Source of the DNA: an uncultured Candidatus Saccharibacteria bacterium
GTDB lineage: Bacteria > Patescibacteriota > Saccharimonadia > Saccharimonadales > JAGQNJ01
DNA: 64,000 bases
Assembly (NCBI GenBank): GCA_964491925.1
Contig: CAZBGZ010000001.1
Coordinates: forward strand, 192,701-256,700
Reading direction: 5' to 3'
Shown: piece by piece, positions 5,418 through 55,260 of the stretch
Layout: each line of letters opens with the position of its first letter
Position numbering within the stretch: position 1 is the first letter of the stretch
Notes under the pieces: model-generated
What the model was told of the DNA's origin: nothing
Seen by the model: the letters and a program-made list of their open reading frames with translations, nothing else
The model's database searches: none
Made by a program: the position numbers and the translations under genes

Positions 5418-5421
5418 GGCG

Positions 5422-6807: not shown

Positions 6808-6852
6808 ATAGCTTTTTTGTATTCCTTTAGTTGAGGATTGCGGCTACTGGTT

Positions 6853-6990
6853 CTAGTGCGTTACTCGGGCGCGGTTCTTTAGTCGTCGTCTTTTGATAAC
6901 GGCTTGGCCACCTTTTGTGGACATGCGTGCAAAAAAACCGTGAACTCGGGATCGGTATCGTTTCTTTGGCTGGAATGTTCTCTTTGGCAT
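6853..6990 (-). CDS. rpmH: 50S ribosomal protein L34
   Basis: Hand translation of the minus strand gives [45 protein letters not shown], a classic L34. At 45 aa it is too short for the ORF track. Confidence 0.9.
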
Positions 6991-8669: not shown

Positions 8670-8912
8670 TCTGCTTGTGGACAATACTAGTACAAACACA
8701 GTAAAAACAATGGGTACAGGTATGGTTAATACGTCATTAATAGTGGGTAAAAAATTTACAGCTTTTTGTTATACACCAACAAACCAATGGCTTATACGTG
8801 TGTTTATACGCAGGGTTAATTCGATCATTCAAACTGTTAATTCCGTGTTTTACACATCTTCCACAGTACTAATAACTAAAACTAATCTAAGTTAAAAGGA
8901 ATAACTATTATT
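8670..8912. promoter_or_regulatory. dnaA-dnaN spacer with degenerate DnaA boxes (possible second oriC half)
   Basis: AT-rich 243 bp with TGTGGACAA at 8676-8684 (1 mismatch) and TCTTCCACA at 8857-8865 (2 mismatches). Confidence 0.35.
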
Positions 8913-10007: not shown

Positions 10008-10043
10008 TTAAAGCCTAAAAGAGCGGCGTTCTATAATAGGGCT

Positions 10044-16095: not shown

Positions 16096-16136
16096 ATTGG
16101 TTGGCCTTTTTTGTATTCAGCATGACTTATTACTAA

Positions 16137-18062: not shown

Positions 18063-18063
18063 A

Positions 18064-18933: not shown

Positions 18934-18979
18934 TTATTTTTTGCCCACCAATGGCTTTTAGAAAGACGAACCGCCAAGA

Positions 18980-19960
18980 CTAATGTAGAGATATGGTTAC
19001 CTCTCCGTCGTGCTCATCTACATTTTCTGACGATGAACGGACATTTAGCTCGGTTTTATTGTCTTGTTTGACAGGATTTATTATATCAGGCGTAGGTGTT
19101 TGTGTCATTGGCTGATTGGTGGGTGTTTGTACGGGGGATGCGGGCATGGGGGTTTGTGTGGGCGGAGTATAAGTAGCGGTAGGGGCAGTTTGGGCCTGTG
19201 CAACTGGGGCAACGGGTGTCTGGACATCTGCTAATGGCCCCATAGACGGTGTCGCAGTATAAACAATTGGCACGGCTTGTTGACTAGGCGGTTGCGCTGT
19301 TGCTACTTTTTGCTCCTCGGCAATATTTTGCATTTCTTGTAATACTGCGGTTCTGTGTGTTTGTTGGTTCTCGGCCACCATAGCGTTAATGGTTTGTGCC
19401 AGTGGTGTCGTGGCAGCGTCCAGCAGGTCTTCACCTGGCTTGACACTGGTTATATCTGTTTGGGGGATAGCCTGGATATCCAACAACCTATCAGATGATT
19501 CGCTTTGCAAGGGGTTAGCATAAACATTAGTTGACACATTTTTTATTGCCCAGCCACGAGTATCCATGGTATTAGCCAGGGCCTTTAGCCGGCTCCTGGC
19601 TTCTTCTTTGCCAAATTCTTTTGTCAGCTGTTTTTTCTCAACTTTTGGTGCTGTAACCCTGACCATTTCTTCAATTCCATCCTGATTCCAAATCCGCTTT
19701 CGGGGGAAAATAAAAAATTTTATTTTAGCCAGCATCCACACTTCTGATGATTGGTCGTGGCCAAATGGCGCTGCTAGCATGGCAAAGAAAATAAGTGGTG
19801 GCAAGAACGGTATAGCCAAATACCACCCAACAACAGCCAAGCGGAATGCTACAAAACCAATAACAATCACAATAATGGCGTAAATAAACTGCCTCAGGGT
19901 CAACGGCCCCAGCAGCTTGTCCTCTGCCTCTATGTCTTGTAATACTTTATATTGCGCCAT
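18980..19960 (-). CDS. PrgI/VirB3-like small-TM T4SS protein with long P/T/Q-rich C-terminal region
   Basis: N-terminus MAQYKVLQDIEAEDKLLGPLTLRQFIYAIIVIVIGF followed by two TM helices, a pattern I associate with PrgI-family proteins of monoderm T4SS. Confidence 0.5.
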   Translation of the reverse strand: MAQYKVLQDIEAEDKLLGPLTLRQFIYAIIVIVIGFVAFRLAVVGWYLAIPFLPPLIFFAMLAAPFGHDQSSEVWMLAKIKFFIFPRKRIWNQDGIEEMVRVTAPKVEKKQLTKEFGKEEARSRLKALANTMDTRGWAIKNVSTNVYANPLQSESSDRLLDIQAIPQTDITSVKPGEDLLDAATTPLAQTINAMVAENQQTHRTAVLQEMQNIAEEQKVATAQPPSQQAVPIVYTATPSMGPLADVQTPVAPVAQAQTAPTATYTPPTQTPMPASPVQTPTNQPMTQTPTPDIINPVKQDNKTELNVRSSSENVDEHDGEVTISLH

Positions 19961-19973
19961 AATTTATATATTA

Positions 19974-22900
19974 TTATCTTCTAAACCTACCAGGCGTCGG
20001 CTTGATACCACTAGTATCTGCAACTGCCGGTGCACCACCCTGAGAAAGAGTTACTGAACCTACAGGTGTGGTGGCGGCGCCTGGCTGTTGACCTTTTATC
20101 CCTAATGAACGACTACCGCTCACAGCATCATAAGCACCCAACTCTAGGCGCTGTTGGCTCTTCATGGAAGTTAAGATGGCCTGGGCTGCTGGTGTTGCCC
20201 CACTGGCAGATACAGCAGGATCGCCGGTAACGGCTCCTGGGGCGGCATTAGCTAGGCTTTGCATGACCTGGGTCTGCCCATCGGTATTTTCGTAAATGCT
20301 TGCAAGGTGGTCCATGTCGTCTTGAGAGGCAACTCCTCCCCCCGCTTGAGCTTGTATTATTCTGTCTTCCAATATTTTCTGCCAATGTGCTTGGGTTTTC
20401 AGGGTTTCGTCACTTTGCATAGACTGCGGATATTGCTGTTGGTTTCTTCGTAGCCAGTCAACTGAATCTTTGTGTGCAGCAGCATCCGTGCTTAGATCCT
20501 TTAATGCAACTCCCGTAACTCTACCCGTGGCTGGGTCTCTTTGTAACTTAGGCGACGTTTTATTTAAACCAATGTGCTGCCCCTTTGCCCCGTAGGTAGC
20601 AGCGTTATGTGTGCCCAAACCTTCCCAGTCGCTCATGTTCATATCAACCGCGGCTTGCGTGAAACCTTGCCAGTAGTTGTCTATATCATCATCATTTTCA
20701 AATTTCCGAACGGCATATTCTAGACTTTGGCCAACTGCCGGTATATCGTTGCCCAGAGTGCTTTTAGCCTTCCTGTAAAAGTCACGTGTAATTTCTTGTC
20801 CCTTCGAGTTGAAGTACCTGTCTTTGGTATCATCGACGTGGTCCTTGTCGGTGTAGGCAGACCCCGCTTTGCCCGTTTTTGGATCAATCAATTTAACCCT
20901 ACTCCTAGTAGCTTCACCTTTGCGTACTACAAATCCACCTGCTGCAAACCTCATGTCGTCAGCACCGGTTTGTGTCGTATTGTCTTGCACATCTTTCTCT
21001 TCTTTGTTCAGCATGGCGGCATCATACCGTTGGTTCCCCATGCCTGCTAATCTGGCCCGCTGTTTCCTCCACCCCTTTACATTGGCATTGTTCAAATCAT
21101 TAGACCAATTATCTCTAGCTCTGGTGCCAGCCTTTTTATAGTTTCTTCTGACACTATTCCGCAAACTGTATGGATTGTGCTCGCTGCCCTTGATGCCCTC
21201 GAGGCCTTTTTTGCCAGTAGACGATATTGCGCCGTAGATGCTGGCCACCGCGCCTCCGGCTAACTTGAATGCAAATGGAATCAAGAAAAGTGGCAAAAAC
21301 TGCAGTACAAAAGCAACTATTGCTGCCACACCACCAGACACCGTCCCGCCGTTGCCGCTGGCTTTTAGAACAGTTATGCTCAACACATCTGCCATGCAGA
21401 AAATAATAACTATGATTGGGTACATCATTAGTGTTTTGAATAACAAATCCCACCATTTTTTAAAGTACTGTTCGCCGTTAGGCAAAGCATAAAGGCAAAA
21501 GGCAATAGGGCTAGATATTATCAAAAACAGTATTAGTCCCTGTCGAATAACAATGGTTGCGAATACCCCCATAATGGCTATAGCCGCTGGCAGTATCATA
21601 AATAACCCTACAAATGGGGCCACGCTGCCCAAACCGACAGTTGCAGCTCCTACGAAAGAAGTTATCGCACCTGCACCGGCTACAATCCCCCCTACACCCG
21701 CTGCTGCAGCCAGGCCACCCTGGCCCAATCCCAGATCAAACGACCCCATGCTGCTTTTGAACGGTGCGTAGATTAGATTGCCAATGCCTTTACCGATGAT
21801 ATTGGTGATATCAATCATTAGGTTGATGGCGTATACAGACAAGTTTATTAGAATGGCTGCTGCCAGCAACTTCGGTAGCACCTTTTTTGCTGTATATGCG
21901 TCTACCAACCCCCCGCCCAATGCCTGGCCCATCACAATTACCAGCATGGCCACTATCAGCAGGATATTGGCATATACTCGGAAGCTAGACCATGCCTGGA
22001 ATGCTGGTTCGTTGGGGTCAGTATTGACGGGTGATACATACAAAAATGGTTCAATTAGTGACTTAAACATCCAGTCTGTGAGGTCGGCCATGCCGTTGAA
22101 GATTGGACACATAATCCATGTTAGCGGGTTGTTCCATTTTACTTCGCAAGTGATATTTTGGTCGCCTTCGCCATCAACGTCTGTTGTCCCACCGGTCGTA
22201 GGGTCATCTGGGTCATCTTCTGGGCAACCGCCACCTTCTACGTTATAGATTTTAGGAATACATTTGCCTGCTTCACCGGACACATTTTCTCCATTGAATG
22301 CTATTGTAACTCTGCCCATGTCGTGAGTAATCGTGTGACTTAGAGGACCGACCGAGCATCGAGTGTCGATCCTAAAAAAACCTGTCGTTGGGTTATTGGT
22401 TATTATTGTGTAATCATCACTAAGATTGCCATCATCTCTGAGATATTCATTTGGTTTTCGGTTGGGTTCGCCGGCTGGTCTTCTACGCCAGAGTTTATTG
22501 TCATCACCTGGCGAAAAGTGCATTTTTGTCCAGTCGCCAGCACACCCAGCGCCCTTAACGCCAATAGGAACGAAAAGCTCATCATCGCTTCTTCTATACA
22601 CATTCCAGTCTTTTCTCTCGGCGTTTTCTATATCGGTAATGTTGACTCTTTGTGACCCTGCTGCTTGCCATCTCGCGTAGGCATCATTGCCATTGGCTAT
22701 ACCGGCACAATCGCCTGTACTCAACTTATGACCAGCCACGAAAGTACTGCCTGTGTCAGAGTCAAACATAGTGACAGCATCTTTACAGTCGCTGTCACCT
22801 CCTTCGAATCGCCTGAAATCATCATAGGGATTACTGTCAGTGTAGACCTGGCCACCCAGCTTTATATGGATCGCATCTACGTATTTAACGCGGTCCAGTT

Positions 22901-23024
22901 TTCTCTCAGGAGCAGCTTCAGTTTTTTGCGCAGTCGGTATTAATACAAAGAAGACAGGTGCCAATACCAAAAAAGCAAAATAATATAAACCCAGTTTTTT
23001 TATTTTTCGAGAAATATTTATCAT
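19974..23024 (-). CDS. 1016-aa polytopic membrane protein, VirB6/TrbL-like channel candidate
   Basis: Signal-anchor, then a roughly 290-aa Cys-containing ectodomain, then at least 6 TM helices (residues about 340-600), then a roughly 400-aa soluble tail. It is the first gene of the operon. Confidence 0.55.
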   Translation of the reverse strand: MINISRKIKKLGLYYFAFLVLAPVFFVLIPTAQKTEAAPERKLDRVKYVDAIHIKLGGQVYTDSNPYDDFRRFEGGDSDCKDAVTMFDSDTGSTFVAGHKLSTGDCAGIANGNDAYARWQAAGSQRVNITDIENAERKDWNVYRRSDDELFVPIGVKGAGCAGDWTKMHFSPGDDNKLWRRRPAGEPNRKPNEYLRDDGNLSDDYTIITNNPTTGFFRIDTRCSVGPLSHTITHDMGRVTIAFNGENVSGEAGKCIPKIYNVEGGGCPEDDPDDPTTGGTTDVDGEGDQNITCEVKWNNPLTWIMCPIFNGMADLTDWMFKSLIEPFLYVSPVNTDPNEPAFQAWSSFRVYANILLIVAMLVIVMGQALGGGLVDAYTAKKVLPKLLAAAILINLSVYAINLMIDITNIIGKGIGNLIYAPFKSSMGSFDLGLGQGGLAAAAGVGGIVAGAGAITSFVGAATVGLGSVAPFVGLFMILPAAIAIMGVFATIVIRQGLILFLIISSPIAFCLYALPNGEQYFKKWWDLLFKTLMMYPIIVIIFCMADVLSITVLKASGNGGTVSGGVAAIVAFVLQFLPLFLIPFAFKLAGGAVASIYGAISSTGKKGLEGIKGSEHNPYSLRNSVRRNYKKAGTRARDNWSNDLNNANVKGWRKQRARLAGMGNQRYDAAMLNKEEKDVQDNTTQTGADDMRFAAGGFVVRKGEATRSRVKLIDPKTGKAGSAYTDKDHVDDTKDRYFNSKGQEITRDFYRKAKSTLGNDIPAVGQSLEYAVRKFENDDDIDNYWQGFTQAAVDMNMSDWEGLGTHNAATYGAKGQHIGLNKTSPKLQRDPATGRVTGVALKDLSTDAAAHKDSVDWLRRNQQQYPQSMQSDETLKTQAHWQKILEDRIIQAQAGGGVASQDDMDHLASIYENTDGQTQVMQSLANAAPGAVTGDPAVSASGATPAAQAILTSMKSQQRLELGAYDAVSGSRSLGIKGQQPGAATTPVGSVTLSQGGAPAVADTSGIKPTPGRFRR

Positions 23025-23192
23025 ACTTTAGTCAAATCTCTTATGCTATTATCTTACACTACCCTAGTTAGTAGATACAACAGATAGCTAACAGAAATAG
23101 ACCCGAAAGATACCCGAAGACATCTAGCTTATCACATCAGTACTAACAATAGGTAGCCTCGACTATTGAGAGAAGAAAGGTATTGTACTATT

Positions 23193-23774
23193 ATGAATGC
23201 AGAGAAGAAAATGAATCCTCAAATACAAAACCAAAACGACAAAAATTCTGATTATGACTTTATAGTCAATCAGCCAGGCGAATTCGATAAACCCAAGCTT
23301 GATCGCAAGGTTATCACTATTATAATACTAGTAATTATAATAGTGATAACCTTGGCTGTGGCTGCATTATTGAGTGCAAAGCGCAAAGTTGCCCCAATAC
23401 AAAATTCTAATACACCTTCGTTGGCAAAAACGAGTAATGGTAGCTCGACGGTGGCAGATTCAGTAGTAAAACCATTTTTAGTTGATGCCAGTAAAAATCC
23501 CCAGGCTGCATATGATAAATATATCGAACCAGGCATCGACGATAGTTTTACAAAGGAGGCTTTTATGAGCGAATCAATGCCATTCTTGAATAAACTAAAA
23601 CTGGGCGAATGTGTTCTCGGTGCAGCCAAAGAAGTGGATACATCAGGAGCTAATATCACGACTTTAGTTTGCCCCACAAAAAGTACTGGAGCAAGAATCG
23701 GCCTGTCTTTTATTACAGTTGGCCTAAGCACAACTACCAAAATTGTTAACTTTAGTTTTGTGGAGCCTGCATGA
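23193..23774 (+). CDS. membrane-anchored hypothetical protein, first gene of the plus-strand T4SS operon
   Basis: The track ORF starts at 23166 (TTG). ATG 23193 follows GAAAGG. Single TM (VITIIILVIIIVITLAVAALL). The stop overlaps the next start (ATGA). Confidence 0.45.
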   Translation: MNAEKKMNPQIQNQNDKNSDYDFIVNQPGEFDKPKLDRKVITIIILVIIIVITLAVAALLSAKRKVAPIQNSNTPSLAKTSNGSSTVADSVVKPFLVDASKNPQAAYDKYIEPGIDDSFTKEAFMSESMPFLNKLKLGECVLGAAKEVDTSGANITTLVCPTKSTGARIGLSFITVGLSTTTKIVNFSFVEPA

Positions 23775-24418
23775 AAAAATCTATTCTATCTTTCCCAGCA
23801 TTCATGATGCTTATAGTTGTTGTTGCCGGTTTTGTGGTACCCAAAGTAGCGTATGCCGCCGCCCCAGTATGCTATAAAAGGTCGGGCAGTCCACCTTCGG
23901 TAAAAGAGAAGCCTTGCGATCGTCTCAAATCACAAATAGAGGGGCTACTCGGGCACCCGATGAAGGATGACTTTTGCTATTTATTAGGCTCGACCGTTAT
24001 CGAAAAACCTATTGATAGCCCAAAATGCGATGAATTTAAAGATAAAGCTGCGAATGGAGGTGGGGGTGGTGGTGCTGGTGGAACCCTGAATGCTTTTTCA
24101 GCCAACACTAGACCAGTGACGGCCGGCGACACCTGTGGCGACCCGGGGGTTGATATTAGCATCAACATTGGCTGTCAGGGGCAGAATAACCCCATCGTTG
24201 ACATGACTTTTGCATTTATCCGCTTTTTGTCAGTTGGCGTAGGTGTAGTGGCAGTTGGTTCAATTGTTTTGGGCGGCGTCCAATACACATCTTCTGCGGG
24301 TGACCCGAAAAAAACAGCCGCCGCCATTAGTCGTATATCCAATACATTAATCGCCCTTCTCATTTACTTCTTGATTTTTGCTATACTAAACTGGCTCGTA
24401 CCATCAGGAATATTCTAA
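23771..24418 (+). CDS. VirB2/TrbC-like pilin paralog 1 (long form with Cys-rich, Gly-run N-domain)
   Basis: Signal peptide ...KVAYA, then several Cys and GGGGGGAGG. The C-terminus has TM1, the loop YTSSAGDPKKTAAAISRISN, then TM2, as in the five downstream paralogs. Confidence 0.6.
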   Translation: MKKSILSFPAFMMLIVVVAGFVVPKVAYAAAPVCYKRSGSPPSVKEKPCDRLKSQIEGLLGHPMKDDFCYLLGSTVIEKPIDSPKCDEFKDKAANGGGGGGAGGTLNAFSANTRPVTAGDTCGDPGVDISINIGCQGQNNPIVDMTFAFIRFLSVGVGVVAVGSIVLGGVQYTSSAGDPKKTAAAISRISNTLIALLIYFLIFAILNWLVPSGIF

Positions 24419-24802
24419 ATGAACGTATTGACCTATTTATACTCTCAATTCGCAGCGGCCTGCCAACCAAAAGGTAGCTTTTTTGGGTTCCCTACTTGGT
24501 ACAAATATTTGGATGGACAAAACGTTACCGATGGAGCCACAAACACCACTACTTGTTCGCCAATAATCCATGGCATAAATGATGTTTGGTTGATAGTTTT
24601 GGCTATTATAGATCTTCTGCTCAGGGCTGCGATATTGGCTGCTGTAGGTTTTGTTCTTGCCGGTGGGGTGAAATTTATGGTTAGCCAGGGGCAACCAGAT
24701 AAGATTAAATCTGCGCTAACTACTTTGGTTAACGCTCTGATTGGCCTAGCTATTGCAGTGGCCGCAGCAACACTCGTATCTTATGTAGCGGGGAAATTCT
24801 AG
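24419..24802 (+). CDS. VirB2/TrbC-like pilin paralog 2
   Basis: Cys pair, TM1, the loop MVSQGQPDKIKSALTTLVN, then TM2. The start abuts the previous stop. Confidence 0.6.
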   Translation: MNVLTYLYSQFAAACQPKGSFFGFPTWYKYLDGQNVTDGATNTTTCSPIIHGINDVWLIVLAIIDLLLRAAILAAVGFVLAGGVKFMVSQGQPDKIKSALTTLVNALIGLAIAVAAATLVSYVAGKF

Positions 24803-25105
24803 ATGATTTTTCATAATATATATAATTTGGCAGTCTCAAATTGTGCTGGCGCTTCTTGCCAAACCAATTTACCAGAAGTTGCAGCTGACGCTAGCACTGT
24901 ATCGACAATATTGTCGGTTGTATTTGGTATTATCGGGGCCACATCCGTAATACTAATAATATTTGCTGGCATGTTATTTATTACTGGCGGCGATGACCCG
25001 CAAAAAATTAAGACTGCCCGCAATACAATTATTTGGGCATTACTGGGCTTGGGGATTGCTTTATCGGCTGAGGCTATTGTATATATTTTCTTGAGGCAAC
25101 TATAA
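24803..25105 (+). CDS. VirB2/TrbC-like pilin paralog 3
   Basis: CAGASC, TM1, the loop FITGGDDPQKIKTARNTII, then TM2. The start abuts the previous stop. Confidence 0.6.
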   Translation: MIFHNIYNLAVSNCAGASCQTNLPEVAADASTVSTILSVVFGIIGATSVILIIFAGMLFITGGDDPQKIKTARNTIIWALLGLGIALSAEAIVYIFLRQL

Positions 25106-25106
25106 G

Positions 25107-25502
25107 ATGATAAAAAGATTTTTTTACATACTAACGCTTGCCATGTTAACTTTTTTTGCTATCCCGTCCACATCAGTTTTGGCGGTCGATATAATTAGCC
25201 CCGCCTGCCAAAATATTACTACCGGAGATGTTCCTGCTGCTTGCCGCGACAACACTAAGCCTGGTGATGATTTTCTTTTTGGCCCAGATGGAGTTATCAC
25301 AAAGATTATCAATATATTCTCAGTAATATTGGGAGTTGCTGCGGTTATTGTGATCATGATATCTGCAATAAGGTTTATTTCTTCCAATGGCGACCCCGCT
25401 ACAATTTCTTCCGCTAGAAGCGCCATAATCTTTGCCATAATCGGCCTGGTAGTTGCTGCAGTATCCCAGATTGTTGTTCAGCTTGTGTTAAGTAAAATAT
25501 GA
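25107..25502 (+). CDS. VirB2/TrbC-like pilin paralog 4
   Basis: Signal peptide, Cys pair (PACQ..AACR), TM1, the loop FISSNGDPATISSARSAII, then TM2. Confidence 0.65.
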   Translation: MIKRFFYILTLAMLTFFAIPSTSVLAVDIISPACQNITTGDVPAACRDNTKPGDDFLFGPDGVITKIINIFSVILGVAAVIVIMISAIRFISSNGDPATISSARSAIIFAIIGLVVAAVSQIVVQLVLSKI

Positions 25503-25517
25503 GGTTAATCTAGATTT

Positions 25518-25916
25518 ATGGTTAAAACAATAATAAATAAATACAAATATTTGTTGGCTGCAATTTTAGCTTCCCTGTTTGTGCTGGCGATGACGATGCC
25601 GGCCCAGGCATTATTCGAGAGTTCTATTGACGAAGCCTGCAAGGGAGCGACACTAGATGGAACTAGTAACTGCCCAGGGGGTCAAGCAGAAACCCAAATC
25701 AATTCGACTATCGAACAGGGTTTTATGCTGTTCTCGACGGTAATTGGTGTTATCGCAGTAGTAATGATTATTATTGCTGGTATTAAATATGTGACATCAA
25801 GTGGCGACCCCGCAAGTGTTAACAGCGCAAAAAACACTATGCTATATGCTGTAATTGGGCTAGTGATTGCGGCATTAGCTCAGGTTATTGTGCGGTTTGT
25901 GTTGACTCAAACATAG
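25518..25916 (+). CDS. VirB2/TrbC-like pilin paralog 5
   Basis: Signal peptide ...PAQA, Cys pair (EACK..SNCP), TM1, the loop YVTSSGDPASVNSAKNTML, then TM2 ending AQVIVRFVL. Confidence 0.65.
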   Translation: MVKTIINKYKYLLAAILASLFVLAMTMPAQALFESSIDEACKGATLDGTSNCPGGQAETQINSTIEQGFMLFSTVIGVIAVVMIIIAGIKYVTSSGDPASVNSAKNTMLYAVIGLVIAALAQVIVRFVLTQT

Positions 25917-25974
25917 TTCTTGCGGTAATTCGCTCCCTGTGGTAAATTTAACTTAAGAAAACGAAAGGAAAATA

Positions 25975-26385
25975 ATGAAAAAAATACTAAAAAAACTAAT
26001 CGCCAGCGCCAGTGCAGCCGCCCTACTATTGGCCCCAGCAGCGCTAGTTGCATCGCCCGCATTCGCACAGCCAAATATTGACGAAGGACTATGCCAGGGC
26101 GCGAACTTGCAAGTTGGTGAGACTAACTGTAACGGTGATGACGCTCAGGACACAGTTAACAGCATCATAACTGATGTCATTAACATCTTTTCAATTGTCG
26201 TCGGTGTTGTATCAGTCATAATGATTATTGTTGGTGGTCTTAAGTACATTACATCTGGTGGTGATTCAGGAAACGTCAGTGGTGCCAAGAACACGATCTT
26301 ATATGCGATTATTGGACTAGTTATCGTTGCTCTTGCCCAGGTTATAGTGCGATTCGTACTCGGAAAAGCTGTCTCAGCCTCATAG
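25975..26385 (+). CDS. VirB2/TrbC-like pilin paralog 6
   Basis: Signal peptide ...SPAFA, Cys pair (GLCQ..TNCN), TM1, the loop YITSGGDSGNVSGAKNTIL, then TM2 ending AQVIVRFVL. It has its own RBS (GAAAGGAAAA). Confidence 0.65.
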   Translation: MKKILKKLIASASAAALLLAPAALVASPAFAQPNIDEGLCQGANLQVGETNCNGDDAQDTVNSIITDVINIFSIVVGVVSVIMIIVGGLKYITSGGDSGNVSGAKNTILYAIIGLVIVALAQVIVRFVLGKAVSAS

Positions 26386-38197: not shown

Positions 38198-39055
38198 ATG
38201 GAAGCGCAGGTGGGGCAAGAGGTTGCCTTAGGTAAAAGATTACAGTTAGCTCGTCAAAAGGCAGGATTAACCCAGCAACAGTTATGTGCGCAGGCTGATT
38301 TATCATATTCTACGTTAGCAAAAATCGAGCGTGGCGCGATAAAATCTCCTTCAATTTTTACAGTAGAGAGTGTTGCGGACGTTATTGGCGTAACTCTCGA
38401 TGAATTAATGGGTAGAACAAGCAATTTTGCAAAAGCTAGCAATAAAAAAATCTCTAAAAGCGGTATAAGGTTTGTATATTTTGATATTAATGGTTGCCTA
38501 GTACGGTTTTTTCATCGAGCTTTTTCGGAGCTATCAGAGAAAACCGGCGTGCCGCTAAACAAAGTAGAGTCAGCTTTTTGGCACTTTAACGATGTCATTT
38601 GCAGGGGTGAGATTACTCTAGACGAGTTCAACAAAAAGTTTGCTAAACAAATGGGGATTTCGGAAATAGATTGGGCACCGTACTATCTAGGCGCCGTCGA
38701 GCCCATAAAGGACATGCACGAGCTAATAAAGTGGGCCTCCCAGTACTATAAAATCGGTTTAATGAGCAATATTATGCCAGGCATGATAAAAGCCATGTTA
38801 GATAAAAAACTACTTCCAGATGTCGAGTACGATGTGATTATCGATTCTTCAAAAGAACACTTGATAAAGCCCGAGGCCAAGATTTACGATCTGGGGGAAG
38901 AACGGGCGGCCGTACCAGCAGGCGAGATACTGCTAGTAGATGACACCAGAGCCAATATAATGGCCGCAGAGCGCAAAGGTTGGAGTGTCCTGTGGTTTGA
39001 CGACTACAAACCGTCCGACAGTGCTAAACGGATCAAACAAGTCTTAGAATTCTAA
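38198..39055 (+). CDS. XRE-family HTH domain fused to a HAD-like hydrolase domain
   Basis: LGKRLQLARQKAGLTQQQLCAQADLSYSTLAKIERG (HTH_3). Then VYFDINGCLV (HAD motif I variant) and LLVDDTRANIMAAERKGW (HAD motif III/IV). Confidence 0.7.
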   Translation: MEAQVGQEVALGKRLQLARQKAGLTQQQLCAQADLSYSTLAKIERGAIKSPSIFTVESVADVIGVTLDELMGRTSNFAKASNKKISKSGIRFVYFDINGCLVRFFHRAFSELSEKTGVPLNKVESAFWHFNDVICRGEITLDEFNKKFAKQMGISEIDWAPYYLGAVEPIKDMHELIKWASQYYKIGLMSNIMPGMIKAMLDKKLLPDVEYDVIIDSSKEHLIKPEAKIYDLGEERAAVPAGEILLVDDTRANIMAAERKGWSVLWFDDYKPSDSAKRIKQVLEF

Positions 39056-51057: not shown

Positions 51058-51606
51058 TTAGGAGGATTTTTTGGTGAAGTAGTTTATTTCGTTAATGATG
51101 TCGAGCATCGCCTCTGCACGAGGTTTTTTGCCCTCAATTTTCTTGGCGGTTTCAAACGCTTGAGGAATTAATGATTGATCATCAGATGCTTGAATCGTCA
51201 TCATAAGTATGTTCAGTTTTGCTTCTGGGGTTTGATCTAGTTCATCCAGTAGAGGGGAAAGTTCTTGAAGAGCGCTTTTTTTGATCTCTACTAAATCAGA
51301 AGGCGTTTTGTCCGCATTTATCGTTGGGGCAGGCGTCTCTTCTTCGTCCTCGTCTGGCACGGAGACAGCTACTGGTTTTGGCTCGTCTGCTAGTTCCAAA
51401 TCAGTTTTATCTACAGGCTCGTTAATATCGTCCACTATTTTGGCAATATCGCCGTCTTCATCATCAGAATCGTCTGATGCAACGCTAGAATCGCCAGGTA
51501 TACCAACTAGATTCTCGTCTGGTGGCGTAGTGCTCATCGGTTGAACTACGTTGTCGTCCTGTGTTTTTTTATCTTCATTTTTGTCGTCGTGACCAAACAT
51601 TCCCAT
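51058..51606 (-). CDS. hypothetical highly acidic protein
   Basis: I trimmed the start to ATG 51606 (MGMFGHDD...), preceded by AAAGGGGG. The longer track ORF overlaps the next gene's start. Confidence 0.45.
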   Translation of the reverse strand: MGMFGHDDKNEDKKTQDDNVVQPMSTTPPDENLVGIPGDSSVASDDSDDEDGDIAKIVDDINEPVDKTDLELADEPKPVAVSVPDEDEEETPAPTINADKTPSDLVEIKKSALQELSPLLDELDQTPEAKLNILMMTIQASDDQSLIPQAFETAKKIEGKKPRAEAMLDIINEINYFTKKSS

Positions 51607-51661
51607 CCCCCTTTGTTGTATAGTAGCTAGTATAGAACAAAAAAGGCTGAAGGGAAAATAT

Positions 51662-52690
51662 ATGCTTGATGATTTGAAATATATACACCAAAGAGACAAG
51701 AGCGATGCACTAGGGATTGCCGAAAAACAGTGGCGGCAACTATTGGAAGAATTTGAGGCCCCAAAGATATCGGGGCAGTTTGATAACGTAGTCTACGCCG
51801 GTATGGGTGGGTCTGCATTATCTGCGCGACTAAGTTTGACCTGGCCGGGTTACAGTGTGCCGTTTGAAATCGTCTCAAACTACAATATCCCCGCATATGT
51901 TTCTGAAAATACTTTGTTTATTGCTTGTAGTTACTCTGGCAACACAGAAGAAACCATTTCGGCATTACACGAAGCTGAGAAAACGGGGGCAACCATTGCT
52001 GTCATTGCTTGTGGGGGCAAGCTAGAAGAGATCGCGACTGAAAAAGGTTATGTTTTTGCTAAAATCCCGCCAGTTTCGCAACCTAGATTCGCAACGCTTT
52101 ATATTCTAAAAGCTTTGGTTGCTATCCTGGAGAAGGCTGGTCTAGTCAAAGCAAATGCCGCAGAAAAAGATATGCACCTTGCCTCTGATTTTCTAAAAAA
52201 ATCAGTTGAGGCTTGGGTGCCAACTGTGCCAACAGCTAGAAACGTGGCTAAACAAATAGCCCAAGACGTGATTGGATCAAGCCCTGTTGTATACGCTGGC
52301 CCGCTACTGTGGCCGGCTGCCTATAAATGGAAGATTAGCTTTAACGAAAACGCCAAAAACGTGGCCTGGTGCGGCCAATATCCCGAGTTTAACCACAACG
52401 AATTCCCAGGTTGGTCATCGCACCCAGTCGATAAGCCATATAGTGTTATTGATTTGAGAACGAGTTTTGACCACCCACAGATTCAAAAGCGGTTCGAAAT
52501 CAGTTCAAAATTACTGTCCGGCAAACGTCCACACCCAATAACAGTTAAAGCCGAAGGGGAAACACTGCTCGAACAGCTTTTGTGGACTGTGGCGTTGGGA
52601 GATTTTGTTAGCCTTTACACTGCACTATTAAATAACATAGATCCTAGCCCTGTGAATCTAATTGAAAAGCTAAAAAAGGAACTAGTTTAG
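51662..52690 (+). CDS. bifunctional phosphoglucose/phosphomannose isomerase (SIS domain)
   Basis: YAGMGGSALSA, CSYSGNTEET and NHNEFPGW are typical of the archaeal/bacterial PGI-PMI family. Confidence 0.75.
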   Translation: MLDDLKYIHQRDKSDALGIAEKQWRQLLEEFEAPKISGQFDNVVYAGMGGSALSARLSLTWPGYSVPFEIVSNYNIPAYVSENTLFIACSYSGNTEETISALHEAEKTGATIAVIACGGKLEEIATEKGYVFAKIPPVSQPRFATLYILKALVAILEKAGLVKANAAEKDMHLASDFLKKSVEAWVPTVPTARNVAKQIAQDVIGSSPVVYAGPLLWPAAYKWKISFNENAKNVAWCGQYPEFNHNEFPGWSSHPVDKPYSVIDLRTSFDHPQIQKRFEISSKLLSGKRPHPITVKAEGETLLEQLLWTVALGDFVSLYTALLNNIDPSPVNLIEKLKKELV

Positions 52691-52698: not shown

Positions 52699-53253
52699 TT
52701 ATATTTTGCTATCGCGCAAGCCAATCAGAAAACCGATATAGACACTCAGTATGTGTAGGCAAAACCAAATTACTGCAATAACTACATACTCTCGTAGTGA
52801 TAGTTGAACAACAAGGCTACTAGCTAGAAGACCACCAGCGATGTAGTCAAATTGGTCGAAAGGGAACCAGCTTTCTCCTGAAGGGATGCCTTTTAGCCGC
52901 TTAAAAAAACTCTCTATTGCATCACCAAACAGAGCGCCAAGCCCGAACAATGGGCCTAATATCAAAACGGGTAAAGTCGAGTAATCAACGTTTAGGGCAA
53001 TTGTTTTAGCCCAGCCGGTATGAGTATACAAATATTGCTGAACCCATAGAGTAGTAGTGGCAACCAATATCCCTGCCATCAAACCGCGCCAGGTTTTATT
53101 TGGACCAAAAATACGCTTGTCTCTGAAATGAGCCCCAAAATCTATCGGGGCGCTTAAGTTTTTTAGCCAGGGCATCCTACTGGCAAAAACTGGTGCCGAA
53201 TTGGCCAGTCCGGCCGGCAGAAAGAACCATAATGCGAACAAGATTATACTCAT
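52699..53253 (-). CDS. CarS-family (CDP-archaeol synthase-like, former DUF46) membrane cytidylyltransferase homolog
   Basis: FFLPAGLANSAPVFASR...PIDFGAHFRDKRIFGPNKTWRGL...GDAIESFFKRLKGIPSGESWFPFDQFDY follows the pattern I know for CarS (LPAY.AN..PV...PID.G..F.DG.R..G..KT.RG...GD...SF.KRR.G...G...P..DQ.D). Confidence 0.65.
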   Translation of the reverse strand: MSIILFALWFFLPAGLANSAPVFASRMPWLKNLSAPIDFGAHFRDKRIFGPNKTWRGLMAGILVATTTLWVQQYLYTHTGWAKTIALNVDYSTLPVLILGPLFGLGALFGDAIESFFKRLKGIPSGESWFPFDQFDYIAGGLLASSLVVQLSLREYVVIAVIWFCLHILSVYIGFLIGLRDSKI

Positions 53254-53906
53254 TTATTCGCTCTACCAAGTTTATTTTTTATACGATGAAGTTTTGGGTA
53301 CAAAAGAGTTCGTAGTGGAGGTCTATGCATGTTGAGGTGGCCGAAACTTAGAAGTTCCACGAGGTTATCGGCAGAAGGCATTTCTTTCACTGATGTAAAG
53401 GCGGTGCCCAGGCCTTTCATGCCATGAGCGTCGCTAGAGGCAGCGGGCGGTTTTTGTTTTAGCTTTGCCCAGACCGCAGCTTGGGGGCCTTTGTTTTGAG
53501 CCATAGCGCGTCCATTGTATGTCTCCACAACATCAACTAGCTCGGCTATTGTGTCTAAGTCGACTTTTTTTACTCCTTTTCTGACAGTTTCAAACGGATG
53601 TGGTATGTACACAACCCCACCTTGTGCTTTTATAGCTTGGGCAGTTTCTAGTAATGGCATCCCAGGGCGTATTACCTTACTCAAAAACAATCCAACAATA
53701 TCCCCATGTAGGCTGGAGATTTCTTCGCCTACAATAATCCTGTCTCCAAGGTTTTTGTGGATTCTCAAGGCTTGAGATATACTGTTGTGATCTGTTATGG
53801 CTATACAGTCTAGTAGCTCGTCGTCTATGGCTTGCATGTATTGATCTTCGGATATTCCGCCATCTGGTGAGTCTGTTGAATGAGTGTGTAGGTCTAGCTT
53901 GTACAT
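53250..53906 (-). CDS. PHP-domain phosphoesterase
   Basis: LDLHTHSTDSPDG, ITDHN and later HP/DAHG metal-ligand motifs. It overlaps the next gene by 4 nt. Confidence 0.8.
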   Translation of the reverse strand: MYKLDLHTHSTDSPDGGISEDQYMQAIDDELLDCIAITDHNSISQALRIHKNLGDRIIVGEEISSLHGDIVGLFLSKVIRPGMPLLETAQAIKAQGGVVYIPHPFETVRKGVKKVDLDTIAELVDVVETYNGRAMAQNKGPQAAVWAKLKQKPPAASSDAHGMKGLGTAFTSVKEMPSADNLVELLSFGHLNMHRPPLRTLLYPKLHRIKNKLGRANK

Positions 53907-53909
53907 ATG

Positions 53910-54539
53910 TTAATTGAGTTTTTGAACTACATTAATAATTCTCTGCATCATTGTAACTATTGAAAGCACGGCAACCACTATTACCGCTAATGGTAAATGG
54001 TCAGATAAAAGTCCGACGACCAGAACAAATATTCTAACGTCGTAGGTCATTAGACCTGTACGAAATGATTTATTATTTTGGTGTGAAATGTCCATGTGTG
54101 ATGATTTTGATATTGCAACCTCACCCCAGGCATTAATGTAACTAACTGTTACTGCAACACCACAAGCTAAAATCGCCCAAACAGCGAAATATGGCATATC
54201 TTGAGAAATAAACAAGTATCCAGCCCCGACATACAACATCACTTCTTTGATGCGGTCCGTCACAGAGTCTAAAAACATCCCAGTTGTGCTAGTGCGTTTT
54301 TGAAGCCTGGCTAGCGCGCCGTCCAATGTGTCAAACAACCCAAAGATTACTAGTAATATAGCAGCGGCTATCAATCTGTCGGTGGCGATCAGGTAGGCGA
54401 TAGGAAGGTGCATCACCAGCCCAACCATGGTTACGACGTTCGGGTGTAGTTTGCCAAAAGTAACCTTATCCAGCCCGAATGCAACTGCGCCCATAACTGA
54501 TCGTACCCATTTTTGGATTGCATCCAGAGCCTTGTACAT
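53910..54539 (-). CDS. CDP-alcohol phosphatidyltransferase
   Basis: Exact canonical motif D-x2-DG-x2-AR-x8-G-x3-D-x3-D in DTLDGALARLQKRTSTTGMFLDSVTD, in a polytopic membrane protein. Confidence 0.85.
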   Translation of the reverse strand: MYKALDAIQKWVRSVMGAVAFGLDKVTFGKLHPNVVTMVGLVMHLPIAYLIATDRLIAAAILLVIFGLFDTLDGALARLQKRTSTTGMFLDSVTDRIKEVMLYVGAGYLFISQDMPYFAVWAILACGVAVTVSYINAWGEVAISKSSHMDISHQNNKSFRTGLMTYDVRIFVLVVGLLSDHLPLAVIVVAVLSIVTMMQRIINVVQKLN

Positions 54540-54573
54540 ACACTAGATTATAACAGGGTATAATAATGGGGCC

Positions 54574-55260
54574 ATGCAGCGAGAAAAAAGTACGCCTTTT
54601 ACAAAAAAACTTCTAACTACATTGTTATTTTCTTCTCTTGTAAGCGTTACATTGTTGGCCTTGCGGATGATAGTAGCAGGTAATACTAGGTTCTGGTTTA
54701 TGACTTGGAACCTATTTTTGGCATGGGTACCGCTCCTTTTTGCGTTAGGGCTAAGGATCAATTTGTCAAAAAAACCACTGACTCATTGGCAGAACTTTGG
54801 TCTGCTGGCGTTATGGTTGGGGTTTTTGCCCAATAGCTTTTACCTGATGAGTGATTTGATACACTTACAAAGTTCCGGGGAAGCATCAGTTCTTTACGAC
54901 GTGGCCATGATGATGTCATTTATCATCAACGGTTTAATTTTAGGCTATATAAGTGTTTATATTGTGCATTCTCAACTCTTAAAACACTTCAAGCCTAAAA
55001 CTGTACACATTATTTTAGGATTTGTTTTCTTTGCGTGTGGTTTTGCGACCTATTTGGGCCGGTATTTGCGTTGGAACACGTGGGATATATTCTTGAACCC
55101 AGCGGGTATTTTATTCGACCTGAGCGAAAGGGTTATAAACCCAATACTTCATATTCAAACATACATAGTAACGTTCGTCTTTTTTGTAGTGCTGGCCAGC
55201 ACATACGCAGTGGTCTATCAGTTAATAAGGGTTTTGAGTAGTAACGTTCAAAAAAACTAA
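54574..55260 (+). CDS. DUF1361-like polytopic membrane protein
   Basis: FWFMTWNLFLAWVPLLFA is a pattern I associate with DUF1361. Confidence 0.55.
   Translation: MQREKSTPFTKKLLTTLLFSSLVSVTLLALRMIVAGNTRFWFMTWNLFLAWVPLLFALGLRINLSKKPLTHWQNFGLLALWLGFLPNSFYLMSDLIHLQSSGEASVLYDVAMMMSFIINGLILGYISVYIVHSQLLKHFKPKTVHIILGFVFFACGFATYLGRYLRWNTWDIFLNPAGILFDLSERVINPILHIQTYIVTFVFFVVLASTYAVVYQLIRVLSSNVQKN

What the first reader, a model, noticed from the sequence alone, without database searches (positions are those of the whole stretch)
52699..54539. Three-gene lipid head-group operon with an archaeal-type CarS (CDP-archaeol synthase family) homolog
Seen in sequence, three minus-strand genes are tightly coupled (a 3-nt gap and a 4-nt overlap):
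- a CDP-alcohol phosphatidyltransferase with the exact D-x2-DG-x2-AR-x8-G-x3-D-x3-D motif;
- a PHP-domain phosphoesterase (DLHTHSTDSPDG);
- a 184-aa polytopic protein whose sequence (LPAGLANSAPVF...PIDFGAHFRDKRIFGPNKTWRGL...GDAIESFFKRLKGIPSGESWFPFDQFDY) follows the conserved pattern of the CarS/DUF46 family.

Established: CarS makes CDP-archaeol from CTP and an ether-lipid phosphate in archaea, whereas bacteria normally use the unrelated CdsA. CDP-alcohol transferases often yield a phosphorylated head group, such as PGP- or PIP-type intermediates, that a dedicated phosphatase then trims.

Inference: the operon encodes a self-contained route of activation, head-group transfer and dephosphorylation. 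This is notable for a lineage generally thought to scavenge lipids, and it raises the question of which lipid backbone is activated: one scavenged from a host, or an ether/isoprenoid type.
Basis: partly seen in the sequence, partly recalled or inferred. Interest (0 to 1): 0.65.

Follow-up and report, generated by a model that had tools for sequence, protein, structure and literature searches.

The report
Lipid head-group operon of Saccharibacteria
An ultra-small parasitic bacterium that is thought unable to build lipids from scratch carries a conserved three-gene set (an archaeal-family CDP-lipid synthase, a head-group transferase like phosphatidylinositol-phosphate synthases, and a metal phosphatase) that most likely puts new head groups on lipids taken from its host; the genes are real and widespread in this lineage, but none of the enzymes has been tested.

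Summary
Three minus-strand genes are coupled by a 3-nt gap and a 4-nt overlap, and all quoted motifs are present.

- **Family calls:** The 184-aa protein belongs to the CarS family (Pfam 93.7 bits; model matches ApCarS 5GUF, TM 0.68/0.78) but scores below NCBI's archaeal equivalog cut-off. The transferase is closest to PIP/AIP synthases and keeps both phosphate-binding arginines. The PHP protein is soluble with conserved candidate metal ligands.
- **Distribution:** The window is from a Saccharibacterium (CPR). At least 378 species-level genomes carry this CarS type.
- **Context in 80 loci:** A CDP-alcohol transferase lies within 3 kb in 70. PHP abuts CarS in 45 of 73 testable loci. DAG-kinase-type lipid kinases flank it in 18.
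- **Further links:** Transferase–CarS fusions exist, as do PgsA–HAD-phosphatase fusions. An EEP phosphoesterase replaces PHP in one locus. Archaeal-labelled DPANN MAGs carry PHP–CarS–PgsA.

Best explanation: a salvage-fed route. Scavenged phosphatidate is converted to CDP-diacylglycerol by a CarS-family enzyme acting as a CdsA. A phosphorylated head-group lipid (probably PIP) follows, and PHP dephosphorylates it.

Backbone, head group and phosphatase role are inferred. No inositol-phosphate synthase was found, and cdsA absence is untested. The genes are already auto-annotated, and PI synthesis was predicted for Saccharibacteria in 2018, so novelty is moderate.

The parts
53910..54539 (-). Gene 1: CDP-alcohol phosphatidyltransferase (209 aa), 'type A', in the PIP/AIP-synthase-like subgroup
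   Evidence: - Pfam PF01066 scores 61 bits.
- NCBIfam best hits are archaetidylinositol-P synthase (96.8 bits) and PIP synthase (80.6 bits). Both are below the equivalog cut-offs. pgsA scores 22 bits or less.
- The best PDB matches are all PIP synthases (5D92, 6WM5, 6H53).
- The signature motif D70...D95 is complete.
- R169 and R200 align with RsPIPS R153/R191. Both are at least 90% conserved in 48 orthologues (PMC4634129).
53250..53906 (-). Gene 2: soluble PHP-family metal-dependent phosphoesterase (218 aa), the candidate head-group phosphate phosphatase
   Evidence: - Pfam PHP and PHP_C both score above the gathering threshold.
- NCBIfam CehA/McbA metallohydrolase domain scores 68 bits.
- The AlphaFold model has pLDDT 90.1. 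Its best PDB fold match is TM0559, an uncharacterised PHP phosphoesterase (TM 0.68).
- H7, H9, D15, H40, E62, H103, N131, D159 and H161 are invariant in 57 homologues.
- No hydrophobic segment was found.
- It sits directly upstream of CarS, with stop/start overlap, in 45 of 73 testable loci.
52699..53253 (-). Gene 3: CarS-family CTP:lipid-phosphate cytidylyltransferase (184 aa, five long predicted helices)
   Evidence: - Pfam PF01864 scores 93.7 bits. There is a partial PF01148 match to the C-terminal core only.
- The NCBIfam CarS equivalog scores 122.9 bits, below the 148 cut-off.
- ApCarS 5GUF matches at E=2e-10.
- The AlphaFold model has pLDDT 92.8 with five long helices. Foldseek best hit is 5GUF (TMq 0.68, TMt 0.78, rmsd 2.8 A). 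TmCdsA is only weak.
- Invariant residues are listed.
54547..54555 (-). TGnTATAAT extended -10-like element, 7 nt upstream of the gene-1 ATG. It is a possible promoter of a leaderless operon transcript.
   Evidence: Read directly from the sequence. It is a consensus match only. The two-hexamer scan did not report it.

Best explanation
The operon is a phospholipid head-group module of a Saccharibacterium (Candidate Phyla Radiation).

**Proposed mechanism.**
1. Phosphatidate is obtained from scavenged host lipid. In many relatives it would be made from diacylglycerol by a neighbouring DAG-kinase-type lipid kinase.
2. The CarS-family membrane enzyme activates it with CTP to CDP-diacylglycerol. 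It does the job that CdsA does in other bacteria.
3. The CDP-alcohol transferase moves the phosphatidyl group onto a phosphorylated alcohol. This is most probably myo-inositol-1-phosphate, giving phosphatidylinositol phosphate.
4. The cytoplasmic PHP phosphoesterase removes the terminal phosphate to give the final lipid, probably phosphatidylinositol.

**Shown here.** Family and fold membership of all three proteins; tight coupling of the genes; conservation of the gene association across the CPR.

**Inferred.** The diacyl substrate, the identity of the head group, and the PHP protein's substrate.
For: **Family and fold.**

**Lineage.** Homologues are labelled Saccharimonadales or Saccharibacteria.

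**Spread.** 378 GTDB species genomes carry this CarS type.

**Gene association in the 80 loci fetched.**
- A CDP-alcohol transferase lies within 3 kb of CarS in 70 loci.
- Among 73 loci with enough upstream sequence: PHP and type-A transferase together 41, neither 23, transferase only 5, PHP only 4.
- The PHP stop overlaps the CarS start by 4, 1 or 8 nt in 33 loci.
- The trio is kept at 46-57% identity with unrelated flanking genes.

**Rosetta-stone fusions.** Transferase-CarS fusions P0280 (Nomurabacteria), P0303 and P0381 were found.

**Link to a diacyl substrate.**
- DAGK_cat lipid kinases lie divergently next to CarS in 18 loci.
- A PS decarboxylase is a neighbour in L047.
- PgsA-HAD (YqeG/Gep4-type PGP phosphatase) fusions are neighbours in L084 and L068 (L084 profile-checked, L068 read from sequence).
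- Size-fractionated CPR lipids were all acylglycerols (PMC7242380).

**Phosphatase logic.** Three unrelated phosphoesterase types sit with transferase-CarS in different lineages:
- PHP, as in the window.
- HAD fused to PgsA.
- Exo_endo_phos in a Peregrinibacteria locus.

**Inositol-phosphate reading.**
- The best HMM and PDB hits are PIP/AIP synthases.
- Both phosphate-binding arginines are conserved.
- Some loci carry type A together with a second, different transferase. The two are therefore not redundant.
Against: - No experiment exists for any of the three proteins.
- Archaeal CarS discriminates against phosphatidate, and AfCarS does not rescue an E. coli cdsA mutant (review PMC9385802). 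Use of a diacyl substrate would therefore be a change of specificity.
- The CarS, PIPS and AIPS equivalog cut-offs of NCBIfam are all missed.
- No myo-inositol-1-phosphate synthase was found in the 64-kb window or among the neighbouring genes that were profile-scanned. The source of the acceptor is unknown.
- I could not test whether the genome also has a canonical cdsA.
- The PHP protein has no characterised close relative.
- PHP is coupled to CarS even where the transferase is PgsA-like (L089) or absent nearby (L007).
Confidence: 0.6

Rival explanations
1. Same three-step mechanism but a different head group. The transferase would use glycerol-3-phosphate or another phosphorylated polyol. 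It would make PGP or an analogue, which PHP trims to PG.
For: - No inositol-phosphate synthase was seen anywhere.
- In a Woesearchaeota-labelled MAG, PHP-CarS is followed by a tandem PgsA scoring 243.9 bits, above the TIGR00560 cut-off.
- The PIPS and AIPS equivalog cut-offs are not reached.
Against: - pgsA models score only 18-22 bits on the window protein, against 81-97 bits for PIPS/AIPS.
- All top PDB hits are PIP synthases.
- The two arginines said to be conserved in all PIP synthases are kept.
- Relatives carry separate PgsA-like or type-B transferases beside type A.
Confidence: 0.2
2. The PHP protein is not a head-group phosphatase. It would serve the CarS step itself, for example by hydrolysing the released pyrophosphate, or act on another substrate such as phosphatidate, CDP-DAG or a nucleotide.
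For: - PHP is coupled more tightly to CarS, through overlapping stop/start codons, than to any one transferase type.
- PHP-CarS pairs occur without a nearby type-A transferase (4 of 73 loci; L007/L008).
- The closest folds are uncharacterised or nucleotide-directed PHP enzymes.
Against: - 41 of 46 type-A transferase loci have PHP.
- Other lineages put unrelated phosphoesterases (HAD, EEP) in the same place or fuse them to the transferase.
- Characterised PHP enzymes that I recall act on phosphoesters, not pyrophosphate (from memory, not tested here).
Confidence: 0.15
3. True archaeal-type chemistry. The CarS homologue activates an ether or isoprenoid lipid phosphate (archaetidic acid) and the transferase is an archaetidylinositol-phosphate synthase.
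For: - The family is CarS, and the transferase scores slightly better on the AIPS model than on the PIPS model (96.8 against 80.6).
- The nearest non-CPR relatives carry DPANN archaeal labels.
- Archaeal CarS prefers DGGGP.
Against: - No GGGP or DGGGP synthase or isoprenoid genes occur in the window, nor among the neighbouring genes that were profile-scanned.
- The neighbours are diacylglycerol-kinase-type kinases.
- CPR-fraction lipids were all acylglycerols.
- Known Saccharibacteria hosts are Actinobacteria with ester lipids (my knowledge).
Confidence: 0.07
4. Not a membrane phospholipid route. The CarS-like protein would activate or phosphorylate a polyprenyl carrier, as the CTP-dependent dolichol and phytol kinases of the same superfamily do. 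The transferase would then build a wall polymer or a soluble solute such as di-myo-inositol phosphate.
For: - The CTP_transf_1 superfamily includes CTP-dependent polyprenol kinases (my knowledge).
- DIPP-synthase models give weak hits (49.7 bits).
- LCP-family (c24, read from sequence, not profile-checked) and glycosyltransferase genes occur in some neighbourhoods.
Against: - No soluble inositol-phosphate cytidylyltransferase domain is present.
- Transferase-CarS fusions argue that the CarS product is the transferase's donor.
- The recurrent partners are lipid kinases, PS decarboxylase and PgsA.
Confidence: 0.06

Closest known systems
CDP-archaeol synthase CarS (Aeropyrum pernix ApCarS, PDB 5GUF; Archaeoglobus fulgidus AF1740)
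   Same: - Same Pfam family, about the same length, and five long helices.
- The model superposes at TM 0.68/0.78.
- The conserved polar residues that are invariant in the CPR family are identical in ApCarS.
   Different: - Sequence identity is about 29-32%.
- It falls below NCBI's archaeal equivalog cut-off.
- It has an extra segment of roughly 14 residues between helices 2 and 3.
- It lies in a bacterium, and its gene neighbours point to diacyl lipids rather than to ether lipids.
Bacterial CDP-diacylglycerol synthase CdsA (e.g. Thermotoga maritima TmCdsA, PDB 4Q2E/4Q2G)
   Same: - Proposed to catalyse the same reaction: CTP + phosphatidate -> CDP-DAG + PPi.
- The two share the C-terminal catalytic core (PF01148 hit to residues 50-123).
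   Different: - It is not a CdsA by sequence (24 bits against a 385-bit cut-off).
- It is not a CdsA by fold match either (Foldseek E about 0.4).
- It is about 100 residues shorter.
Actinobacterial PIP synthase pathway (Renibacterium RsPIPS, M. tuberculosis PgsA1) with its still unidentified PIP phosphatase
   Same: - The transferase's best structural relatives are these enzymes.
- The signature motif is kept, and so are both phosphate-binding arginines.
- The logic is a two-step PI synthesis through PIP.
   Different: - The match is below the PIPS equivalog cut-off.
- The donor here would come from a CarS-type enzyme.
- A dedicated PHP phosphatase gene is embedded in the operon. In actinobacteria the phosphatase is unknown.
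Bacteroides thetaiotaomicron inositol-lipid cluster BT_1523 (PIPS) / BT_1525 (PgpA-family PIP phosphatase) / BT_1526 (MIPS) (Heaver et al. 2022, PMC9246714)
   Same: The transferase and its phosphatase are clustered, and the intermediate is PIP-DAG.
   Different: - The phosphatase here is PHP, not PgpA, with no homology between them.
- No MIPS gene is in the cluster.
- A CDP-lipid synthase gene is part of the cluster.
PgsA plus Gep4/YqeG-type HAD PGP phosphatase
   Same: Related CPR loci carry PgsA-HAD fusions next to the same CarS and lipid kinase. This shows the same 'transfer then dephosphorylate' design.
   Different: The window's transferase is not PgsA-like, and its phosphatase belongs to a different superfamily.

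Membership tests
CarS / CDP-archaeol synthase (Pfam PF01864; NCBIfam NF003114) | Match to the Pfam family model above the gathering score, over the full length | tested here: met
   93.7 bits against a cut-off of 22; residues 2-181 match profile positions 3-172 of 175.
CarS / CDP-archaeol synthase (Pfam PF01864; NCBIfam NF003114) | NCBIfam equivalog score, meaning the same function as the archaeal enzyme | tested here: not met
   122.9 bits against a cut-off of 148. CPR fusion proteins score 102-116 bits.
CarS / CDP-archaeol synthase (Pfam PF01864; NCBIfam NF003114) | Five-transmembrane-helix fold of ApCarS | tested here: met
   The AlphaFold model has pLDDT 92.8 with five long helices. Foldseek's top hit is 5GUF (TM 0.68/0.78, rmsd 2.8 A), the only hit with E<=0.001.
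CarS / CDP-archaeol synthase (Pfam PF01864; NCBIfam NF003114) | Conserved polar residues of the CTP/metal cavity | tested here: met
   N18, D38, K53, T54, D111, S115, K118, R119 and D133 are invariant in 36 diverse homologues; Q134 and D136 are nearly invariant. All align with identical ApCarS residues. I could not read the primary structure paper to check which of them are catalytic.
CarS / CDP-archaeol synthase (Pfam PF01864; NCBIfam NF003114) | Substrate is the ether lipid 2,3-bis-O-geranylgeranyl-sn-glycerol-1-phosphate | not testable with these tools
   Context argues against it. The neighbours are DAG-kinase-type kinases and PS decarboxylase, and CPR lipids are acylglycerols.
CdsA (phosphatidate cytidylyltransferase, PF01148 / NF008635) | Full-length match to CdsA models | tested here: not met
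   PF01148 matches only residues 50-123, against profile positions 167-230 of 264. NF008635 scores 24.3 bits against 385. The claim 'works like CdsA' rests on context only.
Prokaryotic PIP synthase / archaetidylinositol-phosphate synthase (CDP-alcohol phosphotransferase class I) | Signature D1xxD2G1xxAR...G2xxxD3xxxD4 | tested here: met
   D70, D73, G74, A77, R78, G87, D91 and D95.
Prokaryotic PIP synthase / archaetidylinositol-phosphate synthase (CDP-alcohol phosphotransferase class I) | Two arginines that bind the phosphate of inositol-1-phosphate (RsPIPS R153 and R191) | tested here: met
   A MAFFT alignment puts window R169 and R200 at these columns. Both are at least 90% conserved in 48 orthologues. 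The pairwise HMMER alignment placed the first arginine differently, so this rests on the multiple alignment.
Prokaryotic PIP synthase / archaetidylinositol-phosphate synthase (CDP-alcohol phosphotransferase class I) | NCBIfam equivalog scores | tested here: not met
   AIPS scores 96.8 against 180. PIPS scores 80.6 against 170.
Prokaryotic PIP synthase / archaetidylinositol-phosphate synthase (CDP-alcohol phosphotransferase class I) | The organism can supply myo-inositol-1-phosphate (a MIPS/ino1 gene) | tested here: inconclusive
   None was found in the 64-kb window or among the recurrent neighbour clusters scanned. The rest of the genome could not be searched, and import from the host is possible.
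PHP-superfamily phosphoesterase | PHP domain match and fold, with His/Asp/Glu metal ligands | tested here: met
   Pfam PHP scores 29.0 and PHP_C 28.1, both above cut-off. The model has pLDDT 90 and its top folds are PHP enzymes. H7, H9, D15, H40, E62, H103, N131, D159 and H161 are invariant. Mapping these onto the nine YcdX ligands is from memory.
Phosphatidylinositol-phosphate phosphatase (only proven bacterial example: BT_1525, PgpA family) | Homology to PgpA/BT_1525 | tested here: not met
   There is no PgpA hit in Pfam or NCBIfam. If the PHP protein is a PIP phosphatase, it is an analogue and not a member of that family.
Phosphatidylinositol-phosphate phosphatase (only proven bacterial example: BT_1525, PgpA family) | Hydrolyses the head-group phosphate of PIP or PGP | not testable with these tools
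   Only gene context is available.

The most novel reading that the evidence does not exclude
A CarS-PHP-transferase module is a lipid 're-heading' kit shared by the two radiations of ultra-small episymbionts, CPR bacteria and DPANN archaea.

- In CPR, the archaeal-family CarS has become the CDP-diacylglycerol synthase. A lipid-divide enzyme family would thus be working on ester lipids.
- The PHP protein would be a phosphatidyl-inositol/glycerol-phosphate phosphatase unrelated to PgpA. That would fill the enzyme gap left open since the PIP/AIP pathway was described.
Probability: 0.35. Interest if true: 0.75.

Novelty: new variant of a known kind. Interest (0 to 1): 0.55.

Why it matters
**Open question in the field.** Patescibacteria are described as lacking lipid synthesis. 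[quoted passage not shown]

**What this module offers.** It is conserved, CPR-wide and probably co-transcribed. It gives three concrete enzymes to test for how scavenged lipid is converted into the cell's own phospholipids.

**Lipid-divide angle.** It offers a natural case in which a CarS-family enzyme probably uses ester lipids. That bears on what sets CarS/CdsA substrate specificity.

**Missing phosphatase.** It provides a candidate for the head-group phosphatase, which reviews still call unidentified outside Bacteroides (PMC4634129, PMC9385802).

**Host relationship.** If the product is PI, a lipid typical of the actinobacterial hosts, it may matter for the host-epibiont interface.

Tried and rejected
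**Literature.**
- Searches for CarS, CDP-archaeol synthase or CdsA together with Saccharibacteria, CPR or Patescibacteria found nothing relevant. The one exception is Starr et al. 2018.
- Two searches were wasted on poor term choices.
- Coleman et al. 2019 does not treat CarS.
- The ApCarS structure paper is not held.

**Collection searches.**
- The search for related loci with the 36-sequence alignment failed because no stretch was conserved enough. A 9-sequence alignment worked.
- A repeated look-up of the 100%-identical PHP protein returned only the same two short contigs. The NCBI source record of the window was therefore not identified.

**Window and neighbourhood scans.**
- A Pfam scan of nearly all window ORFs over 110 aa found no cdsA, pls, MIPS, GGGPS or isoprenoid genes.
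- A scan of ten further recurrent neighbour clusters found no additional lipid genes.

**Phylogeny.** A neighbour-joining tree of 21 CarS sequences was unresolved, with bootstrap below 60 for all deep nodes. It has only one canonical archaeal outgroup. It therefore supports no statement beyond 'DPANN-labelled and CPR sequences are as similar to each other as CPR lineages are among themselves'.

**PHP membrane association.** A C-terminal basic helix of the PHP protein was checked as a possible membrane-binding amphipathic helix. The hydrophobic moment was unremarkable, so I make no claim.

**Soluble-solute reading.** A DIP-type pathway was considered and rejected on context.
Full report

Yes. 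The ORF listing gives three minus-strand ORFs at 53910-54539 (209 aa), 53250-53906 (218 aa) and 52699-53253 (184 aa).

The sequence shows TAA-cat-ATG between the first two genes, a 3-nt gap. It shows an ATGA stop/start overlap between the second and third.

The first protein carries the exact CDP-alcohol transferase signature: D70-x2-D73-G74-x2-A77-R78-x8-G87-x3-D91-x3-D95. The second begins MYKLDLHTHSTDSPDGG.

All three match their Pfam families above the gathering score:
- CDP-OH_P_transf, 61 bits.
- PHP, 29.0 bits, and PHP_C, 28.1 bits.
- CarS-like PF01864, 93.7 bits.

A TGnTATAAT element lies 7 nt upstream of the first ATG (54555-54547, minus strand). The operon may therefore be transcribed as a leaderless mRNA. 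This is a consensus match only.

**2. Which organism, and what surrounds the operon?**

Homologues of the CarS-like and PHP proteins number 989 and 3354 in the 90%-clustered collection. The named ones are 'Candidatus Saccharimonadales/Saccharibacteria'. The window is therefore from a Saccharibacterium (TM7, Candidate Phyla Radiation).

The exact proteins occur on two short public contigs with the same gene order. A 93%-identical relative has the same order on a 70-kb contig.

The immediate flanks are:
- A convergent phosphoglucose/phosphomannose isomerase.
- A divergent DUF1361 membrane protein.
- ArgRS and glutamate dehydrogenase.

I scanned nearly all window ORFs above 110 aa against Pfam. 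There is no cdsA, plsX/Y/C, inositol-phosphate synthase, GGGP/DGGGP synthase or isoprenoid gene in the 64 kb. The rest of the genome could not be searched.

**3. The three proteins.**

*CarS-like protein.*
- It matches the only solved CarS (A. pernix, 5GUF) at E=2e-10.
- An AlphaFold model (pLDDT 92.8, five long helices) has 5GUF as its only significant PDB neighbour (TM 0.68/0.78, rmsd 2.8 A). T. maritima CdsA is a weak second.
- In 36 diverse homologues, N18, D38, K53, T54, D111, S115, K118, R119 and D133 are invariant; Q134 and D136 are nearly so. All are identical in ApCarS in the pairwise alignment.
- It does not reach NCBI's equivalog cut-off for archaeal CarS (122.9 against 148). It is not a CdsA (24 bits against 385).

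*Transferase.*
- It scores best on archaetidylinositol-phosphate synthase (96.8 bits) and PIP synthase (80.6 bits). pgsA models give 22 bits or less. No equivalog cut-off is reached.
- Its best solved relatives are all PIP synthases.
- Clarke et al. (PMC4634129) report that two arginines, RsPIPS R153 and R191, bind the phosphate of inositol-1-phosphate and are conserved in all PIP synthases.
- In a multiple alignment these columns hold window R169 and R200. Both are at least 90% conserved in 48 orthologues.

*PHP protein.*
- It has no hydrophobic segment.
- It folds confidently (pLDDT 90) and resembles uncharacterised or nucleotide-directed PHP enzymes (TM0559, RNase AM).
- H7, H9, D15, H40, E62, H103, N131, D159 and H161 are invariant in the family.
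- Sequence and fold say 'active metal phosphoesterase' but not which substrate.

**4. Comparative context.** This is the main evidence.

A pattern scan of one genome per GTDB species found 378 genomes with this CarS type. The best 80 loci were fetched. They are mostly Saccharibacteria, with Dojkabacteria, Levyibacteriota, Roizmanbacteria and Parcubacteria labels as well. Two labels are probably mis-binned (Limnocylindria, Gammaproteobacteria).

I called ORFs and clustered the neighbours. Findings:
- A CDP-alcohol transferase lies within 3 kb of CarS in 70 of 80 loci.
- Among 73 loci with enough upstream sequence: PHP plus type-A transferase 41, neither 23, transferase only 5, PHP only 4.
- The PHP stop overlaps the CarS start by 4, 1 or 8 nt in 33 loci.
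- The trio is kept at 46-57% identity with unrelated flanking genes. It is therefore a selected unit and not mere synteny.

A second architecture occurs in about 18 loci. A DAGK_cat lipid kinase (YegS/DgkB type) lies divergently upstream of CarS, and a second transferase subtype lies convergently downstream. Mixed forms exist: kinase with both transferases, and kinase with PHP.

Further links:
- Three natural fusion proteins join a PIPS/AIPS-like transferase to CarS. One is from Nomurabacteria.
- L084 and L068 carry a PgsA fused to a YqeG/Gep4-type HAD phosphatase, next to the kinase and CarS. L084 was profile-checked; L068 was read from its sequence.
- L047 has a PLD-like protein, a PS decarboxylase, a transferase and CarS in a row.
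- In a Peregrinibacteria locus, an Exo_endo_phos phosphoesterase takes the place of PHP in a transferase-CarS-phosphoesterase operon.

**5. Archaeal relatives.**

The last homologue search started from a representative labelled Woesearchaeota. It returned a mix of DPANN-labelled proteins (Woesearchaeota, Nanoarchaeota, 'archaeon') and CPR-labelled proteins (Peregrinibacteria, Parcubacteria) at similar scores.
- One Woesearchaeota MAG has PHP (30% identical to the window's), then CarS with a 4-nt overlap, then a tandem PgsA above the TIGR00560 cut-off.
- An 'archaeon' MAG has an overlapping transferase-CarS pair.
- A Nanoarchaeota MAG has CarS beside a PS decarboxylase, two long transferases and, oddly, a PlsC-type acyltransferase.

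A quick neighbour-joining tree was unresolved. I therefore claim only that CPR and DPANN versions are about as similar to each other (33-46%) as CPR lineages are among themselves. Both are about 30-35% identical to ApCarS. MAG labels were not independently verified.

**6. How it most likely works.**

Shown:
- Three co-oriented, probably co-translated genes.
- Their family and fold membership.
- A gene association conserved across a whole radiation, including fusions.

Inferred pathway:
1. Phosphatidate comes from scavenged lipid or from diacylglycerol by the associated kinase.
2. The CarS-family enzyme converts it to CDP-diacylglycerol.
3. The transferase makes a phosphorylated head-group lipid, probably PIP.
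4. PHP removes the phosphate.

The diacyl backbone is supported by:
- The kinase, PS decarboxylase and PgsA neighbours.
- The report that lipids of a CPR-enriched size fraction were all acylglycerols (PMC7242380).

Arguments against:
- Archaeal CarS prefers the ether substrate, and AfCarS does not rescue an E. coli cdsA mutant (PMC9385802).
- No inositol-phosphate synthase was found.
- A canonical cdsA elsewhere in the genome cannot be excluded.

The PHP role rests on position alone. It is strengthened by the fact that HAD and EEP phosphoesterases occupy equivalent positions in other lineages. It is weakened by PHP's tighter link to CarS than to any single transferase type.

**7. Comparison with what is known, and novelty.**

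The scheme 'CDP-activation, transfer to a phosphorylated alcohol, dephosphorylation' is the standard bacterial and archaeal route to PG and PI. What differs here:
- A CarS-family enzyme, not CdsA, in a bacterium.
- A PHP-type phosphatase. The only proven bacterial PIP phosphatase is the PgpA-family BT_1525 (PMC9246714). The actinobacterial and archaeal enzymes are called unidentified.
- Embedding in lineages believed to live on scavenged lipid (PMC11665869).

Against novelty:
- Annotation pipelines already name these proteins 'CDP-archaeol synthase' in Saccharimonadales, Nomurabacteria, Buchananbacteria and others.
- Starr et al. 2018 predicted PA -> CDP-DAG -> PGP/cardiolipin/PI -> PIMs for a rhizosphere Saccharibacterium.

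In the held literature I found no paper that notes any of the following:
- The cytidylyltransferase is of the CarS family.
- It is coupled to a PHP phosphatase.
- The module is shared with DPANN.

**8. Verdict.**

This is a widespread, already auto-annotated but functionally untested variant of a known pathway.

Interest is moderate (0.55). It would not astonish a specialist. It does give directly testable candidates for how CPR bacteria remodel scavenged lipids, for CarS/CdsA substrate specificity, and for the missing head-group phosphatase.

Noticed in passing
window 11847-26385: A type IV secretion-like cluster. It contains a TraG/VirB4-like ATPase (16137-18062, minus), a PrgI-family protein (18980-19960, minus) and a 1016-aa protein without Pfam hits. 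It also has a 982-aa protein with a VanY C-terminus, a CHAP-domain protein, and then five tandem T4SS_pilin paralogues (23771-26385, plus).
   Followed up: partly
window 4917-11099: Chromosomal origin-type gene set: Jag/KhpB (R3H+KH), yidC, dnaA, dnaN and recF.
   Followed up: partly
window 54547-54555 (minus strand): A TGnTATAAT extended -10-like element lies only 7 nt before the ATG of the transferase gene. The whole divergent intergenic region to DUF1361 is 34 nt, which suggests a leaderless operon transcript.
   Followed up: no
L025:6564-7295 and 14 other related loci (cluster c7); L040:7261-7821 (c19): A PIG-L family deacetylase (MshB/BshB-like) lies convergently just downstream of CarS in 15 of 80 loci. 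It is sometimes accompanied by an MDMPI_N/DinB-like protein. Both families are typical of GlcNAc-inositol/mycothiol chemistry. It is not at that position in the window.
   Followed up: partly
L092:3359-8546 (Nanoarchaeota-labelled MAG GCA_964359525.1): CarS lies in an island with a PS decarboxylase, a methyltransferase, two long (340-361 aa) CDP-alcohol transferases, a GT2 glycosyltransferase and a PlsC-type acyltransferase. An acyltransferase of the ester-lipid type in an archaeal-labelled genome is odd, or the bin label is wrong.
   Followed up: no
L012:6543-7163 and about 20 similar genes (type-B transferase): A second CDP-alcohol transferase subtype sits next to CarS. It has AE instead of the canonical AR in the signature motif (DVVDGFVAER...). 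Its HMM affinities are ambiguous between AIPS, ClsA and PgsA.
   Followed up: partly
window 51058-51699 (minus strand): An acidic, low-complexity ORF of about 180-213 aa with no Pfam match. It is conserved next to the phosphoglucose isomerase in 19 related loci.
   Followed up: no
window 54574-55260: A DUF1361 polytopic membrane protein is transcribed divergently from the transferase gene and kept there in 19 related loci. This could be simple synteny or a functional partner.
   Followed up: no
window 38198-39055: A fusion of an HTH_3 DNA-binding domain with a HAD hydrolase domain.
   Followed up: no
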